A stretch of DNA of 23,442 bases. Source: Fidelibacterota bacterium. GTDB lineage: Bacteria > Fidelibacterota > UBA8477 > JABMPR01. A program made the position numbers and the translations under genes. The stretch spans positions 1 through 23,442 of the forward strand of contig JABMQQ010000185.1 of the NCBI GenBank assembly GCA_013202495.1, given 5' to 3'. The first letter of the stretch is position 1; every line of letters starts with the position of its first letter. Positions 2,123-16,235 of the stretch are shown piece after piece. Below the pieces are notes generated by a model that was not told the origin of the DNA, did no database searches, and worked only from the letters and a program-made list of their open reading frames with translations.

Positions 2123-2144
2123 GAATACTCTACAGATCCTATCC
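2123..2144 (+). promoter_or_regulatory. Copy of the recurring GAATAnTCTACA motif (TGAATACTCTACAGATCCTATCC), a putative enhancer/UAS
   Basis: It matches the GAATAkTCTACA core seen at 3991, 4015, 6281, 8885, 8908 and 16131. It lies about 155 bp upstream of a sigma-54-like element. Confidence 0.35.
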
Positions 2145-2278
2145 AGATTCAGTCATAGCACTATCTAAAATCACATGTTGTTAAGTAAATTGGTACTGCA
2201 TGTAAATGTAAGTATAACAACAATATACAGGCCTGCATATTGTACATTTTCCAACACACTACTGTTAATAGCACGTAA

Positions 2279-2294
2279 TGGCATTGTTGTTGTC
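2279..2294 (+). promoter_or_regulatory. Weak sigma-54-type -24/-12 candidate (TGGCAT-N5-TTGT)
   Basis: GG and TTG fall at the canonical 10-bp spacing. Two bases deviate from the other TGGCAC / TTGCA-like elements in the window. The site is about 185 nt upstream of the 2479 start. Confidence 0.3.
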
Positions 2295-2478
2295 AATGTA
2301 GGTATATGATTATGAACAAAAACATTAAGCAGGGAGGAGCCGCATGTAGATGATCGAATGAATCTCTGTTTGCTGTTCTGGATAGAGCCAGGATGAGGGG
2401 TCGCTCAACTGCTGCGGGCAAAAGGAGCAGAAATAAATATACAAAGCTTAATAACAAGTAATCAGAAAGAACCAAAAC

Positions 2479-3864
2479 ATGAAAGATTTGAATAAGGTAA
2501 TTCCGATTTCGCTCCTGCTAATCGTAGGAGGCTTAGTCGGCTGCTCAGAAAGTGAATCAATAGTATCTTCAATTGTAATTGATCCTCTGAGTGTGACAAT
2601 AACTGAAGGAACAACTCAACAATACACAGCCAATGTACTTGATGATCATGATGAAGTCGTGAGTGATGAAGTGATTGTCTGGTCAAGCACCGACGAAAGT
2701 GTAGCAAGTATTGATGCTGCAGGATTAGCAACTGGCTTGATACAAGGCACAACTACTATTACGGCATCAATTGGTGATGTTGTCGCATCTTCACCACTCT
2801 CTGTTGAAATACAATATCCCTTAGGCTCAATGATATCCAGACCTATTACAAACCCTCCAACCGAGAACGCTTCAATAGACCTTTTTTGGGCAGATGTTGA
2901 GGGTCTTGATGTTGAAACAGTTGTTGCAAATTATTATGCCGATTCTGATGGCCATGACATTTGGTGGGATGAATACGAAGGTATGGAGATAGACGTAAGT
3001 ATGAAGTCTGTCTATACTGATGAGGACATCTACTTTTTGTATGAATGGAACGATGAGGCCGATTCGAAGACTCGCCAGGCTTGGTTTCATAATGCAGACA
3101 CAGATACATGGCAGCAAATGGGAAAAAAGATACCCGATGCATTCGGTAATCCTCCCGCTTACGAAGATAAATTCACAGTATTTTGGAACATGTCTATAAA
3201 TGATTTTGAATCTGCAGGTTGTGCCAGCTTATGCCACGGATCTAGCATGAGGACAAATGGTGATGGTGAATTAGCTGACATTTGGCATTGGAAGCGTGAT
3301 CGAACAGCTCCCGTGAACCAAATCGATGATAAATGGCTTGATAACACAAATCCAAATGGACGCCATAGCGACACCGGCACAGGGGCCTATAGTGACAATG
3401 TCCAAACACTTTCGATAGATGGTGTTGACATCAATGCTCCCGCATTTTGGATTCCAGAGAGAACTGATTATCATTGGATACTCCAATCTGAGATTGACGA
3501 TGGAACAGCGAAGGCTATTGTTAGTCTCGATGCTGACAATAACTGGGTCGACGAAGACGGTACGGTCTTGGTCAAATCTAATTTCACATATGACAGCAAT
3601 TTTGTCATCCCAAGTTTAATGGGCATAAAGCCTGGAACCGATAGCCGCGGGGATGTATCCGCATGGCACAATTGGGCAGATGGAAAGTGGACTCTGAAGG
3701 TCAAGCGATCGCGTACAACAAGTACTGTTGATCAGGATGTTCAGTTCACTGAAATTGGTGTTCCATACTGGTTCTCCATTGGTGTGATGAACGGAGCTGC
3801 GATAGCGCATGCTACTCCTGGTGGCTATAGTGGAACAGCATCTCCATTATTTCTAGGAAGATAA
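2479..3864 (+). CDS. Secreted lipoprotein with an N-terminal Big_2 (bacterial Ig-like) domain and a roughly 330-aa C-terminal domain of uncertain family
   Basis: Lipobox LLLIVGGLVGCSES. The Big_2 signature is ITEGTTQQYTANVLD...VWSSTDESVASIDAAGLATGLIQGTTTITAS. The C-terminal domain contains GCASLCHG (a CX3CH arrangement) and many Trp/Asp residues. It could be a DOMON/EB_dh-like binding domain, but that is unverified. Confidence 0.8.
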   Translation: MKDLNKVIPISLLLIVGGLVGCSESESIVSSIVIDPLSVTITEGTTQQYTANVLDDHDEVVSDEVIVWSSTDESVASIDAAGLATGLIQGTTTITASIGDVVASSPLSVEIQYPLGSMISRPITNPPTENASIDLFWADVEGLDVETVVANYYADSDGHDIWWDEYEGMEIDVSMKSVYTDEDIYFLYEWNDEADSKTRQAWFHNADTDTWQQMGKKIPDAFGNPPAYEDKFTVFWNMSINDFESAGCASLCHGSSMRTNGDGELADIWHWKRDRTAPVNQIDDKWLDNTNPNGRHSDTGTGAYSDNVQTLSIDGVDINAPAFWIPERTDYHWILQSEIDDGTAKAIVSLDADNNWVDEDGTVLVKSNFTYDSNFVIPSLMGIKPGTDSRGDVSAWHNWADGKWTLKVKRSRTTSTVDQDVQFTEIGVPYWFSIGVMNGAAIAHATPGGYSGTASPLFLGR

Positions 3865-3919
3865 GTAGTAAATTATATCACTATTGCGAGAAGATTGTAA
3901 TAAAGGGTAAGCCTTACAA

Positions 3920-3960
3920 AGCCTCGATTGGTTACAGATTGATCGGGGCTTTTTGGTTTT
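3920..3960 (+). terminator. Intrinsic terminator. The stem is AGCCUCGAU / AUCGGGGCU with one G-U wobble and a 13-nt loop, followed by UUUUUGGUUUU.
   Basis: Read directly. It lies 55 bp after the stop of the 2479-3864 gene. Confidence 0.6.
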
Positions 3961-3990
3961 AGTATGACCACTGAACTGTATTGAATTAGG

Positions 3991-4034
3991 TGGAGAATAT
4001 TCTACAAACCCGATGAATAGTCTACACAATATCC
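3991..4034 (+). promoter_or_regulatory. Two tandem copies of the recurring motif, with centres about 21 bp apart: TGGAGAATATTCTACA (3991-4006) and GAATAGTCTACACAATATCC (4015-4034)
   Basis: Palindromic core GAATATTC flanked by TCTACA. The same family appears at 6281, 8885, 8908 and 16131. Confidence 0.5.
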
Positions 4035-15300: not shown

Positions 15301-15569
15301 AAACTATGAAGCGTATTGCCGCGCCCATGGTTGGCGGAATGGTCTCCTCAACTATACTAACTCTCATAGTTATTCCTGCAATTTATTATCTCTGGAAATC
15401 GCGAGAAGTGAAAAGCATTATCAGCAAACTACAATTAGATGGTTCAACTGAGCCTGTTGAACTCATTTCCATTGATGCACACTCTGAAGAGACACCAATT
15501 GAAATCGAGGCAAAGCCAAATGAGAATCTCGATGATAATAATTCTACCAAGCTGGGACCAAACGAATAA
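12315..15569 (+). CDS. cusA: Heavy-metal-efflux RND pump, CusA-like (Cu(I)/Ag(I) type)
   Basis: 1084 aa with 12 transmembrane helices and two large periplasmic loops. The TM4 region [20 protein letters not shown]...[40 protein letters not shown] is near-identical to the CusA signature as I remember it, and it lacks the CzcA-type acidic TM4. A roughly 60-aa acidic C-terminal extension is present. Confidence 0.95.
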   Translation: [1084 protein letters not shown]

Positions 15570-15599
15570 TCCTGCACCGACAGGCGATAGGAGAATCAG

Positions 15600-15941
15600 A
15601 TGAAAGAGGTTAAAGCATTTATCCGGGGTGACAAGGCAGACGAAGTTATTGCAGCCTTGGAAGAAGTAGGAGTTATCAACTTGACTGTAATCAATGTGAT
15701 GGGTATAGGCCGGAGTCTTGCGCCTTCGAAAGGTGCAAAATACTCTGTTGATCTGACTCAGAAATATTCAACTATAGCCAAAATAGAGATTGTATGCAGA
15801 GCATCTGATACTGCGAAGATAGTGGATGTATTGCGGCAGTCTGCTTACACAGGCATGCAAGGCGATGGGATGATCTATGTTGTCCCAGTTGAAACAGCTG
15901 TCAAAATTAGAACTGGAGCATATGGGGGGGATGCGTTGTAA
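15600..15941 (+). CDS. PII-like (GlnB-fold) signal-transduction protein. It resembles the 'PII new group' linked to heavy-metal RND loci.
   Basis: It aligns by eye to GlnB: MKEVKAFIRGDK..VIAAL.EVGV..LTV..V.G.GR...KIEIV...D.AKIVDVL..SAYTG..GDGMIYV.PVE.AVKIRTG. The T-loop is shorter and lacks the Tyr51 context. The gene sits immediately after cusA, and a terminator follows it. Confidence 0.8.
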   Translation: MKEVKAFIRGDKADEVIAALEEVGVINLTVINVMGIGRSLAPSKGAKYSVDLTQKYSTIAKIEIVCRASDTAKIVDVLRQSAYTGMQGDGMIYVVPVETAVKIRTGAYGGDAL

Positions 15942-15981
15942 CCCCCCGACAACAATTCTTCCCCGCTTCAGCTTCCATATA

Positions 15982-16036
15982 AGATGGGTGGGCTTTGATC
16001 CTCAATAGGATTAGGGCTCATCCATCTTTTCGTTTT
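15982..16036 (+). terminator. Strong intrinsic terminator with a 21-bp stem: AGAUGGGUGGGCUUUGAUCCU-CAAU-AGGAUUAGGGCUCAUCCAUCU, followed by UUUCGUUUU
   Basis: All 21 positions pair when six G-U wobbles are allowed. It ends the efflux operon 40 bp after the PII-like stop. Confidence 0.7.
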
Positions 16037-16130
16037 AATAGCTTACAATCCACAAAGCACCGCGCCAGATACCACAAAAACAAGACGGATATTACTTGTA
16101 CATTATTCAACACCGACGTCTAGATAATGA

Positions 16131-16148
16131 AGAATAGTCTACAATATC
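16131..16148 (+). promoter_or_regulatory. Copy of the motif, AGAATAGTCTACAATATC
   Basis: Same family as 4015-4034. It lies about 72-90 bp upstream of the sigma-54 element at 16220. Confidence 0.5.
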
Positions 16149-16219
16149 TTAATCTGGATGTTTTTGAAAATATCATCTAACAAACGTAATAACAACAAGA
16201 TAAAAGATATGTATGATTT

Positions 16220-16235
16220 TGGCACGTGATTTGGA
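16220..16235 (+). promoter_or_regulatory. Sigma-54 promoter, TGGCACG-tgat-TTGGA
   Basis: Its architecture is identical to the element at 9036 (TGGCACG-N4-TTGGA). The predicted TSS is near 16246. Confidence 0.6.

What the first reader, a model, noticed from the sequence alone, without database searches (positions are those of the whole stretch)
2123..16235. A recurring palindromic enhancer-like motif (roughly AGAATAkTCTACA(n)AATATC) sits in front of sigma-54 promoters across the island
The sequence shows seven copies of one motif family, all intergenic:
- 2123-2144 TGAATACTCTACAGATCCTATCC
- 3991-4006 TGGAGAATATTCTACA
- 4015-4034 GAATAGTCTACACAATATCC
- 6281-6296 TGTGGAATATTCTACA
- 8885-8906 and 8908-8930, a 23-bp tandem repeat with the perfect palindrome TGTAGAATATTCTACA
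- 16131-16148 AGAATAGTCTACAATATC

Four of the six sites lie 70-170 bp upstream of a sequence with the sigma-54 -24/-12 architecture (2279, 4160, 9036, 16220). The only DNA-binding regulator encoded in the window is an NtrC-family sigma-54 activator (7508-8860). Tandem palindromes at enhancer distance are what bacterial enhancer-binding proteins use.

The inference is a self-contained, probably metal-responsive sigma-54 regulon. It would cover the CusCBA-like operon, the Met-rich/HMBD/cytochrome/CopA operon, the orphan kinase at 4256 and possibly the Big_2 lipoprotein. Most described cus/cop systems instead use OmpR-type CusRS or MerR-type CueR control.
Basis: partly seen in the sequence, partly recalled or inferred. 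Interest (0 to 1): 0.8.

Follow-up and report, generated by a model that had tools for sequence, protein, structure and literature searches.

The report
Enhancer sites of a copper-efflux sigma-54 regulon
A 16-base palindrome, usually in tandem pairs, lies about 85-155 bases upstream of sigma-54-type promoters across this copper/silver-resistance island, and it is very probably the binding site of the NtrC-type activator encoded there: a well-supported but conventional kind of regulon, newly seen in uncultured marine bacteria.

Summary
The core motif is the 16-bp palindrome TGTAGAATATTCTACA. The window holds 8 copies at 3 or fewer mismatches against 0.22 expected, all in the 13% of the window that is intergenic.

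- **Layout.** Sites come as pairs 20-31 bp apart, at 2098/2119, 3991/4011, 8885/8908 and 16097/16128. Each pair sits 86-154 bp upstream of a TGGCAY-N5-TTG element. A single site at 6281 lies 53 bp before the kinase-activator operon.
Sites 2098, 16097 and a weak one at 1958, plus a fifth, leftward promoter at 1845-1831. The 'AATATC' flank is not conserved.
- **Conservation.** The source is a Marinimicrobia-like metagenome contig. Wherever the kinase-activator-cusCBA module recurs (a Neomarinimicrobiota MAG, a Calditrichota MAG and several unassigned metagenome contigs), the same pair plus promoter precedes the cus operon.
- **Link to the regulator.** These activators share the recognition helix IPRHVLLYR. 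None of 154 paralogue loci (about 2.1 Mb) has the motif.
- **Metal.** CusA keeps the Cu(I) methionine triad.

This is a new member of a known kind. M. xanthus CorSR and E. coli ZraSR are metal-responsive sigma-54 precedents. Binding, sigma-54 dependence and the metal signal remain untested.

The parts
1831..1845 (-). Sigma-54-like promoter TGGCATGCATATTGA reading leftward towards the small ORF 1762-1421 and possibly the SPFH gene 1253-453.
   Evidence: A weak palindrome at 1958-1973 lies 121 bp from its GG, the same distance as at the cus promoter.
1958..1973 (.). Weak palindrome TGTCGATTATCCCACA (4 mismatches, 15.2 bits), a candidate UAS for the leftward promoter.
   Evidence: Borderline against the null (95th percentile 15.4).
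2098..2134 (.). UAS pair TGTAGATTATTGTCCA (2098-2113) and TGGTGAATACTCTACA (2119-2134), centres 21 bp apart, in the divergent intergenic region.
2279..2293 (+). Sigma-54-like promoter TGGCATTGTTGTTGT, 154 bp from the proximal site, about 175 nt before the Big_2/EB_dh lipoprotein gene 2479-3864.
3991..4026 (.). UAS pair TGGAGAATATTCTACA (3991-4006) and CGATGAATAGTCTACA (4011-4026), 20 bp apart, just after terminator 3918-3952.
4160..4174 (+). Sigma-54-like promoter TGGCATGCTAGTTGA, 143 bp from the proximal site, before the orphan PAS histidine kinase (4286-6145).
6281..6296 (.). Single palindrome TGTGGAATATTCTACA, 53 bp before the ATG of the kinase gene, with no -24/-12 element after it. Probable autoregulatory operator.
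   Evidence: The same single site sits 34-53 bp before the kinase ATG in L003, L083, L168-171 and L172.
6349..7515 (+). Sensor histidine kinase: an N-terminal membrane domain of about 130 aa without a Pfam match, then HisKA and HATPase_c.
7508..8860 (+). NtrC-family bacterial enhancer-binding protein (REC, AAA+ with GSFTGA, lid, HTH_8). Recognition helix region IPRHVLLYRLKK.
8885..8923 (.). UAS pair TGTAGAATATTCTGCA (8885-8900) and the perfect palindrome TGTAGAATATTCTACA (8908-8923), 23 bp apart.
9035..9049 (+). Sigma-54-like promoter TGGCACGCAAGTTGG, 121 bp from the proximal site. It precedes the hyp124-cusC-cusB-cusA-P-II-like operon (9062-15941).
16097..16143 (.). UAS pair TGTACATTATTCAACA (16097-16112) and TGAAGAATAGTCTACA (16128-16143), 31 bp apart, just after terminator 15982-16027.
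   Evidence: The same 31-bp pair occurs in L083 at 12590/12621.
16220..16234 (+). Sigma-54-like promoter TGGCACGTGATTTGG, 86 bp from the proximal site. It precedes the run of genes from the Met-rich protein to copA (16434 to beyond 23442), which has no plus-strand terminator.

Best explanation
The 16-bp palindrome TGTAGAATATTCTACA is the recognition site of a dimer of the NtrC-type enhancer-binding protein encoded at 7508-8860.

Proposed mechanism:
1. The membrane kinase (6349-7515) detects a signal, most likely Cu(I)/Ag(I) stress.
2. It phosphorylates the activator's receiver domain (Asp52).
3. Activator dimers bound to two adjacent sites, two or three helical turns apart, assemble into the active AAA+ ring.
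4. By looping the AT-rich spacer, the ring contacts sigma-54 RNA polymerase waiting at a -24/-12 promoter 86-154 bp downstream and uses ATP to open it.

Five units would be switched on together:
- the small ORF, and perhaps the SPFH gene, reading leftward;
- the Big_2/EB_dh lipoprotein;
- the orphan PAS kinase;
- hyp124-cusCBA-P-II;
- the twelve-gene Met-rich/HMBD/cytochrome c/DUF302/DUF2231/CopA operon.

The single site just before the kinase-activator operon, where no sigma-54 element exists, would give autoregulation, probably negative.

Shown here: the sites, their pairing, spacing and positions, the promoter-like elements, the domain make-up of the activator, cross-lineage conservation, and the association between motif and recognition helix. 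Inferred: binding, sigma-54 dependence, the signal, and the sign of autoregulation.
For: Enrichment and location:
- 8 sites at 3 or fewer mismatches against 0.22 expected.
- A matrix trained only on other genomes ranks nine window sites as the top nine hits, all intergenic.
- TGGCAY-N5-TTG is 6 against 0.52 expected. Five matches are intergenic, correctly oriented, and each lies downstream of sites.
- Terminators separate the units.

The regulator:
- It has all bEBP domains.
- Its nearest solved relatives are Aquifex NtrC4 and NtrC1.

Conservation:
- Kinase-activator-(hyp124)-cusCBA synteny holds in L003 and L083 (85% identity), L004 (63%, Calditrichota), L084 (64%) and L085 (59%).
- Each has a tandem pair 109-141 bp upstream of TGGCAY-N5-TTG before cus.
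- L083 also repeats the 31-bp pair and the 86-bp distance before the Met-rich gene.
- L168-171 and L173 carry the tandem pair, and L168-171 and L172 carry the single site before the kinase gene.

Specificity:
- The helix region IPRHVLLYRLKK is identical in all six activators aligned, although overall identity falls to 59%. The 48-49% relatives have other helices and no motif.
- Of 7 loci with the helix, 5 have a site at 2 or fewer mismatches and a sixth (L085) has a weaker pair at 3 and 4 mismatches. Among loci without the helix, 154 have no site; the 6 that do are L168-171 (activator deleted), L172 (contig ends inside the kinase gene) and L005 (related helix, related palindrome).
- A search on the helix alone picked out L173, and the pair was then found 80 bp after its activator gene.

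Metal:
- CusA/CzcA family, with M573/M623/M672 conserved.
- HMBD in CusB, in a periplasmic protein and in CopA; a YHS domain; a Met-rich protein.
Against: - There is no binding, transcript or mutant evidence.
- rpoN could not be looked for in the source genome.
- The -12 element lacks the consensus C in 10 of 11 promoters (TTGG/TTGA/TTGT).
- No IHF consensus lies in the spacers.
- Four metagenome contigs (L168-171) keep all cis elements but have lost the activator gene, so regulator and sites are not strictly inseparable.
- One short contig (L174) has the helix but no site within 500 bp.
- Only about 33 kb of the source genome could be scanned, so 'regulon confined to the island' is untested.
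- The kinase's sensor domain belongs to an uncharacterised family of about 500 clusters whose ligand is unknown.
Confidence: 0.8

Rival explanations
1. The regulon and its enhancer are real, but the kinase senses something other than copper or silver, for example general envelope, redox or membrane stress. The metal genes would then be one output of a stress response, as argued for ZraPSR in E. coli.
For: - The sensor domain has no periplasmic loop and no known metal-binding family match.
- Its family is much broader (511 clusters) than the cus-linked group.
- The regulon also contains an SPFH protein, a PAS kinase and an EB_dh (haem-domain) lipoprotein, none obviously metal-specific.
Against: - In every related lineage the conserved core target is cusCBA.
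- Even the 48% relative in a Clostridiaceae MAG sits next to a CopA-like ATPase.
- Three near-invariant histidines in the membrane domain would suit a metal site.
Confidence: 0.2
2. The palindrome is bound by a different transcription factor encoded elsewhere in the genome, for example a repressor. The NtrC-type activator would use other, unrecognised sites.
For: - L168-171 keep the sites without an adjacent activator gene.
- The 6281 site is not followed by a sigma-54 element.
Against: - Motif presence tracks the activator's recognition helix across 167 loci, and a helix-based search predicted a new site-bearing locus.
- The position (86-154 bp upstream, in pairs) is that of an enhancer, not an operator.
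- No other DNA-binding protein is encoded in the window.
Confidence: 0.07
3. The tandem palindromes act in RNA, not DNA. Two copies of one palindrome pair with each other, forming a 16-bp hairpin just after the activator gene that would terminate or stabilise the kinase-activator transcript.
For: RNA 8878-8935 folds to -20.2 kcal/mol, z = -8.8. The extended palindrome at 6276-6301 folds to -12.4 kcal/mol.
Against: - Any two copies of one palindrome must fold this way.
- No U-tract follows (AAAAUAUCAUC).
- Other pairs lie after strong true terminators (3918-3952, 15982-16027) or in a divergent promoter region where no transcript should end.
- In L003 the pair members TGGAGACTATTCTCCA and TGTATAATAATCAACA each keep internal dyad symmetry, but only 11 of 16 positions could pair between the two sites (read).
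- The flanks that extend the 6281 hairpin are not conserved in L003.
Confidence: 0.03
4. The motif is a dispersed genomic repeat (REP- or MITE-like) with no regulatory role, and the TGGCAY-N5-TTG matches are chance.
For: Only about 33 kb of the source genome could be examined. An IS element abuts the island in some contigs.
Against: - The perfect palindrome recurs at the same position relative to cus in a Calditrichota MAG of different G+C content (51% against 42%).
- No site occurs in the 10 kb to the left of the window.
- In 2.15 Mb of other loci there are 0 hits at 1 or fewer mismatches and 1 at 2.
- Sequence outside the 16-bp core is not conserved, unlike a mobile repeat.
Confidence: 0.02

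Closest known systems
Myxococcus xanthus CorSR and the curA operon (PMC3707914)
   Same: - A two-component system whose response regulator has REC, sigma-54-interaction and Fis-type HTH domains.
- Copper-induced, with several putative sigma-54 promoters spread along one gene cluster.
- The cluster contains copA and a cbb3-type cytochrome c (PF13442), as this one does, and the regulator genes lie inside it.
   Different: - CorS has a signal peptide, one transmembrane segment, a periplasmic sensor domain and a HAMP domain. The kinase here has a multi-helix membrane domain with no HAMP domain and no sizeable periplasmic domain detected.
- curA holds a multicopper oxidase and no cusCBA pump.
- The text search of the CorSR paper found no mention of palindromes or inverted repeats, so no binding site appears to have been defined for CorR.
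E. coli/Salmonella ZraSR (HydHG) with zraP
   Same: A metal-responsive (Zn/Pb) kinase plus NtrC-family activator acting on sigma-54 promoters from upstream inverted repeats, with autoregulation (established knowledge; mentioned).
   Different: - Not a member: ZraR equivalog score 400 against a cutoff of 760; ZraS 176 against 479.
- ZraS senses through a periplasmic domain.
- The ZraSR target is the periplasmic protein ZraP, not an RND pump or P-type ATPase.
- There is no zraP in this window.
NtrC at glnAp2 (enteric bacteria), and Aquifex NtrC1/NtrC4
   Same: - Tandem dyad-symmetric sites, two or three helical turns apart, about 100-140 bp upstream of a -24/-12 promoter, nucleating oligomerisation of a REC-AAA+-HTH activator. 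NtrC also represses by binding near sigma-70 promoters (established knowledge).
- The best solved-structure matches are Aquifex NtrC4 (4l4u) and NtrC1 (1ny5).
   Different: - The site sequence differs (NtrC: TGCACC-N5-GGTGCA).
- The regulon is for metal export, not nitrogen.
- The NtrC equivalog score is 410 against a cutoff of 559.
CusRS / CopRS (OmpR-type) and CueR (MerR-type) control of cus and cop genes
   Same: The output genes are the same (cusCBA, copA), and the physiological role is presumably the same.
   Different: The regulator family, sigma factor and promoter architecture all differ. No OmpR-type or MerR-type regulator is encoded in the window.

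Membership tests
bEBP / UAS / sigma-54 regulon (NtrC-type, group I) | The regulator has a receiver domain, an AAA+ sigma-54-interaction domain with a GAFTGA-type loop, and a C-terminal Fis-type HTH. | tested here: met
   Pfam hits: Response_reg 4e-30, Sigma54_activat 2e-70, AAA_lid_14, HTH_8 1e-11. GESGTGKE, GSFTGA, IFLDEIG and Asp52 are visible in the translation.
bEBP / UAS / sigma-54 regulon (NtrC-type, group I) | Target promoters carry a -24 GG and a -12 GC with fixed spacing (TGGCAC-N5-TTGC). | tested here: inconclusive
   Five intergenic TGGCAY-N5-TTG elements (6 matches against 0.52 expected). The GG, the spacing and the -12 TG are kept, but the -12 C is replaced (TTGG/TTGA/TTGT) in all five here and in 10 of 11 across lineages.
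bEBP / UAS / sigma-54 regulon (NtrC-type, group I) | Dyad-symmetric activator sites, often in tandem, roughly 80-200 bp upstream of the promoter. | tested here: met
   Pairs 20-31 bp apart. Proximal centres lie 86-154 bp from the GG in the window and 109-141 bp in the related loci.
bEBP / UAS / sigma-54 regulon (NtrC-type, group I) | The activator physically binds the sites, and transcription needs sigma-54 and ATP hydrolysis. | not testable with these tools
   Indirect evidence only: the association between motif and recognition helix and a successful prediction at L173.
bEBP / UAS / sigma-54 regulon (NtrC-type, group I) | rpoN is present in the same genome. | not tested
   Only the window and 10 kb to its left could be fetched from the source contigs.
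ZraSR | Equivalog-level similarity to ZraR and ZraS, and a zraP target. | tested here: not met
   ZraR 400 bits against a cutoff of 760; ZraS 176 against 479. AtoC and AtoS score higher but are also below their cutoffs. No ZraP-like gene appeared in the Pfam scans.
CusRS-type (OmpR family) copper two-component system | A response regulator with a winged-helix Trans_reg_C output domain acting on sigma-70 promoters. | tested here: not met
   The only response regulator has AAA+ and HTH_8 output domains. No Trans_reg_C domain was found in any ORF scanned.
CusCBA Cu(I)/Ag(I) RND pump (the regulated output) | CusA/CzcA-family RND protein with the methionine triad M573/M623/M672, a CusB-type adaptor and an outer-membrane factor. 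| tested here: met
   TIGR00914 scores 1233 bits against a cutoff of 701. LLYMP, PLSMIE and RIDML align to the three E. coli CusA methionines. CusB-type domains and OEP are present.
Dispersed repeat (REP / MITE) | Many copies scattered through one genome, conserved beyond a short core, and not tied to gene function. | tested here: not met
   Conservation is limited to 16 bp. No copies in the 10 kb left flank. The same sites occur at the same positions in a different phylum (Calditrichota) and in related unassigned contigs. Only about 33 kb of the source genome was examined.

The most novel reading that the evidence does not exclude
The unit made of (a) a kinase with an uncharacterised membrane-embedded sensor domain carrying three near-invariant histidines, (b) its sigma-54 activator, (c) the activator's 16-bp palindromic enhancer and matching -24/-12 promoters and (d) cusCBA is a self-contained, horizontally transferred copper/silver-sensing cassette. 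It would replace CusRS in several uncultured phyla (Marinimicrobia, Calditrichota and others). Its sensor domain would be a new class of intramembrane Cu(I)/Ag(I) receptor.
Probability: 0.3. Interest if true: 0.6.

Novelty: new member of a known kind. Interest (0 to 1): 0.4.

Why it matters
It gives a concrete, testable regulatory model for metal resistance in phyla that have no cultured model organisms: a defined binding site, five promoters, and a named regulator and kinase. It shows that cusCBA, normally under OmpR- or MerR-type control, is here wired to sigma-54 through a conserved enhancer. The motif and helix signature can be used to annotate the same regulon in other metagenome-assembled genomes. 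The kinase's histidine-bearing membrane domain is a candidate new sensor module. The mechanism itself is textbook, so the gain is in breadth of knowledge rather than a new principle.

Tried and rejected
- **The 3' flank 'AATATC' as part of the motif.** Rejected: information content outside the 16-bp core is 0.7 bit or less across 23 sites.
- **IHF sites in the spacers.** The WATCAR-N4-TTR consensus is absent in 10 of 11 spacers; they are merely AT-rich.
- **Known RNA families.** None in the window at Rfam gathering thresholds, so the long leaders after 2279 and 16220 are not known riboswitches.
- **Sigma-70 consensus scan.** No more hits than shuffles, so it says nothing about the promoter near the 6281 site.
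- **Pfam and NCBIfam for the kinase sensor domain, hyp124, the small ORF, hyp268, hyp110 and the Met-rich protein.** No family, even at E = 10.
- **The search for homologous proteins with the sensor domain and with the DNA-binding domain.** Only two hits each. Three of the four led to useful loci (L168-173). The fourth (L174) is a 994-bp contig with an odd 75-aa ORF and no site.
- **The 48-49% relatives L086 and L087.** No motif, no cus genes and a different helix. They mark the edge of the group; a look for their own palindromes was uninformative.
- **Literature searches for sigma-54 control of cusCBA, and for Marinimicrobia.** These found CorSR and general ZraR mentions but no description of this system.
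- **Walking further along the 277-kb source contig.** Not possible, because look-ups accept only window proteins.

Full report
**What is in the window.** The 23.4-kb window (42% G+C) is a metal-resistance island (Pfam and NCBIfam).

| Coordinates | Strand | Product |
|---|---|---|
| 1253-453 | - | SPFH protein |
| 1762-1421 | - | small ORF with a signal-peptide-like start |
| 2479-3864 | + | Big_2 + EB_dh lipoprotein |
| 4286-6145 | + | orphan PAS histidine kinase |
| 6349-7515 | + | membrane histidine kinase |
| 7508-8860 | + | NtrC-family activator |
| 9062-9436 | + | two-helix membrane protein (hyp124) |
| 9437-15569 | + | cusC, cusB (with HMBD), cusA |
| 15600-15941 | + | P-II-like protein |
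| 16434 to beyond 23442 | + | Met-rich secreted protein, two outer-membrane-like proteins, an HMBD protein, two c-type cytochromes, DUF302, SHOCT, DUF2231, and a CopA with YHS and two HMBD domains |

CusA aligns to E. coli CusA with all three Cu(I)-binding methionines (M573, M623, M672) conserved. The pump is therefore of the Cu(I)/Ag(I) type. The identity of the triad residues is from established knowledge of CusA.

The window is identical to JGI metagenome contigs of 105 and 277 kb. The closest genomes are a Candidatus Neomarinimicrobiota MAG (activator 85% identical) and a Calditrichota MAG (63%).

**Checking the observation.**
- The common core is the 16-bp palindrome TGTAGAATATTCTACA. At 3 or fewer mismatches the window has 8 matches against 0.22 expected, and no shuffle of 100 reaches 8.
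- A weight matrix built only from sites in other genomes ranks nine window sites as the top nine hits. All nine fall in the 3071 intergenic bases.
- Sites come in pairs: 2098+2119 (21 bp apart), 3991+4011 (20), 8885+8908 (23) and 16097+16128 (31). The site at 6281 is single. A borderline site lies at 1958.
- Across 23 sites from six lineages, information content is confined to the 16 core positions. The 'AATATC' extension is therefore not part of the conserved motif.

**Promoters.** TGGCAY-N5-TTG occurs six times against 0.52 expected.
- A fifth is on the minus strand at 1845-1831, pointing at the small ORF.
- The sixth (22560) is inside copA and has no sites near it.
- Proximal-site centres lie 154, 143, 121 and 86 bp from the -24 GG. 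The weak 1958 site is 121 bp from the minus-strand GG.
- Strong terminators at 3918-3952 and 15982-16027 precede two of the pairs. No plus-strand terminator occurs from 16900 to the window's end.
- The island is thus cut into units, each with its own pair and promoter.
- The spacers are AT-rich and lack IHF consensus sites.

**Related loci.** Searching genomes and metagenomes with the activator gave about 160 loci. Only a few are close: L003 and L083 (85%), L004 (63%), L084 (64%) and L085 (59%).
- All five keep the order kinase, activator, (hyp124), cusCBA.
- All five have a tandem pair 109-141 bp upstream of TGGCAY-N5-TTG in front of the cus operon. In L003 the -12 region reads TGGA at the standard spacing (or TTGG after a four-base spacer). 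The Calditrichota locus (51% G+C) has the perfect palindrome.
- L083 also has the 31-bp pair 86 bp before a TGGCACGCAAATTGG element ahead of its Met-rich gene, exactly as in the window.
- The single site before the kinase gene recurs in L003, L083, L168-171 and L172, 34-53 bp from the ATG.
- In 2.15 Mb of the remaining loci (paralogues from other phyla) there are no hits at 1 or fewer mismatches and one at 2.
- None of those loci carries cusCBA.
- The 10 kb to the left of the window has no site at 4 or fewer mismatches.

**Link to the regulator.**
- The activator has the full bEBP make-up: Asp52 receiver, Walker A/B motifs, a GSFTGA loop and a Fis-type HTH. Its nearest solved relatives are Aquifex NtrC4 and NtrC1.
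- The recognition-helix region IPRHVLLYRLKK is identical in all six activators aligned, while the rest of the protein diverges to 59% identity.
- The next relatives (48-49%) have ITRPTLIYRMEKY and no motif.
- Over all fetched loci, 5 of 7 with the helix have a site at 2 or fewer mismatches. A sixth (L085) has a weaker pair; the seventh is a 994-bp fragment.
- Among loci without the helix, 154 have none. The six that do are four copies of a locus where the activator has been deleted, one contig that ends inside the kinase gene, and a Clostridiaceae relative with a similar helix (MTRHTLLYR) and a similar palindrome (TGTAGCATATGCTACA) next to a CopA-like gene.
- A search using only the DNA-binding domain returned a fragment from a new contig (L173). 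The pair TGTAGAATATCCTACA / TGTAGAGTATTCTACA was then found 80 bp after that gene. This was a prediction that held.

**Mechanism.** The best reading is a classical enhancer-dependent sigma-54 regulon.
1. The kinase senses the signal and phosphorylates the activator.
2. Dimers on two adjacent palindromes assemble the AAA+ ring.
3. The ring loops to the closed sigma-54 complex and opens it.

The single site before the kinase-activator operon has no -24/-12 element after it, and its position close to the start codon is conserved. This suggests autoregulation, probably repression. No terminator separates the PAS kinase from that operon, so read-through from the 4160 promoter could add positive feedback; that step is inference. 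Copper/silver as the signal is inferred from the outputs.

The kinase's sensor is a membrane domain of about 130 residues with no Pfam match. It is found in about 500 clusters, mostly proteins of 340-400 aa. It has three near-invariant histidines. That is compatible with a metal site but not evidence for one.

**Rivals.**
- **A different factor binding the sites.** Unlikely given the helix association.
- **An RNA hairpin.** The 8885/8908 pair folds to -20 kcal/mol, but this is an automatic property of two copies of one palindrome. It lacks a U-tract, and it cannot explain pairs placed after real terminators or in the divergent region.
- **A dispersed repeat.** Excluded as far as the data allow.
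- **A non-metal signal.** This remains a real possibility (about 0.2).

**Comparison with known systems.**
- The kind is known. M. xanthus CorSR is a copper-induced sigma-54 two-component system controlling a cluster with copA and a PF13442 cytochrome c (PMC3707914). E. coli ZraSR is Zn/Pb-responsive.
- This system is not a ZraSR, AtoSC or NtrBC equivalog by NCBIfam cutoffs.
- Its kinase differs from CorS, which has a periplasmic sensor plus a HAMP domain.
- Its core target is an RND pump.
- I found no description of sigma-54 control of cusCBA, or of this motif, in the searchable literature.
- I therefore rate it a new member of a known kind. It is solid and useful for annotating uncultured phyla, and of moderate interest.

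**Open oddities.**
- The -12 element lacks the consensus C in 10 of 11 promoters.
- The predicted +1 falls on or next to an ATG at three cus promoters.
- L168-171 keep every cis element although the activator gene is gone.

Noticed in passing
window 1831-1845 (-), 1421-1762 (-), 1677-2009 (-): A fifth sigma-54-like promoter reads leftward toward a 113-aa ORF with a signal-peptide-like N-terminus. JGI's gene call is instead an overlapping 110-aa ORF (2009-1677) that looks spurious and would bury the promoter and the 1958 site in coding sequence. Neither ORF has a family match.
   Followed up: partly
window 6349-6750 (kinase residues 1-135): The kinase's membrane sensor domain matches no Pfam family. 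It is shared by about 511 clusters of mostly 340-400-aa kinases. It has three near-invariant histidines (H30 and H41 in 100%, H78 in 92% of 76 members) within the motifs H-Y-x-T, H-x-I, YYxPI, FGxxGG and PH. The sensor family is uncharacterised.
   Followed up: partly
window 9046-9049, 16231-16234, 4171-4174, 2290-2293, 1831-1834, and the related loci: The -12 element reads TTGG, TTGA or TTGT rather than TTGC in 10 of 11 promoters of this regulon across lineages. Only L085 has TTGC. Whether this reflects lineage-specific sigma-54 preference or tuning of the regulon is unknown.
   Followed up: no
window 9061-9067; L003 6076-6079; L083 3660-3664: The predicted transcription start (12 nt after the -12 element) falls on or 1-2 nt before an ATG at all three Marinimicrobia-type cus promoters. 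This suggests leaderless starts, or coincidence. In the window, an SD-like GAGAGG (9055-9060) before ATG 9065 would then lie outside the transcript.
   Followed up: no
window 15600-15941: A P-II-family protein (113 aa) is encoded directly after cusA and is conserved in L003 and L083. It scores far below the GlnB/GlnK equivalog cutoffs, so it is a P-II-like protein tied to a metal pump rather than to nitrogen control.
   Followed up: no
window 23378 onward; L166 12438-12969; L167: The JGI and Logan contigs match the window up to 23378. The JGI contig L166 then runs into an IS-type transposase gene (HTH_Tnp_1), while L167 ends about 30 bases after the divergence. So copA is interrupted in part of the population, whereas the window carries the uninterrupted gene.
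   Followed up: partly
L168 1300-2200 (also L169-L171): This variant of the module has the kinase cut down to a 163-aa sensor-only ORF and no activator gene. It still keeps the single site, the tandem pair (one copy perfect), the TGGCAT-N5-TTG element and hyp135-cusCBA. It lies next to a phage-type integrase in two samples, and the left flanks differ between the samples (an integrase in two, an AAA ATPase in one). This could be a mobile or decaying copy regulated in trans.
   Followed up: partly
L005 2780-2900: A Clostridiaceae MAG has a 48%-identical activator with a similar helix (MTRHTLLYRMEKH) beside a CopA-like ATPase. It carries a related pair, TGTAGCAAACAACACA / TGTAGCATATGCTACA, 22 bp apart. 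The pair lies downstream of a TGGTAT-N5-TTGCA element, which is an unusual position for an enhancer.
   Followed up: partly
window 16434-17006, and 16588-16603: A secreted 190-aa protein is extremely rich in Met, with His, Asp and Gln, and may be a periplasmic Cu(I) sponge analogous to SilE/PcoE. It has no family match. Its MQNMQQ codons produce a motif-like match (TGCAGAATATGCAGCA) inside the coding sequence, also present in L083. That match is probably a coding by-product, not a site.
   Followed up: no
window 2294-2478 and 16235-16433: Two regulon promoters are followed by long untranslated leaders (about 175 and 188 nt) with no Rfam match. The 2294-2478 leader contains a 15-codon ORF (ATGATTATGAAC...TGA). 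Their function is unknown.
   Followed up: no
L004 15300-15420: A run of short GCAGT(A/G)(A/G)G-like repeats about 120 bp long lies immediately upstream of the enhancer pair in the Calditrichota locus.
   Followed up: no
L174 257-484: A 75-aa ORF joins a lipoprotein-like signal sequence to the same HTH (IPRHVLLYRLEKY), on a 994-bp contig with no palindrome nearby. It is probably a gene remnant or an assembly chimera.
   Followed up: partly
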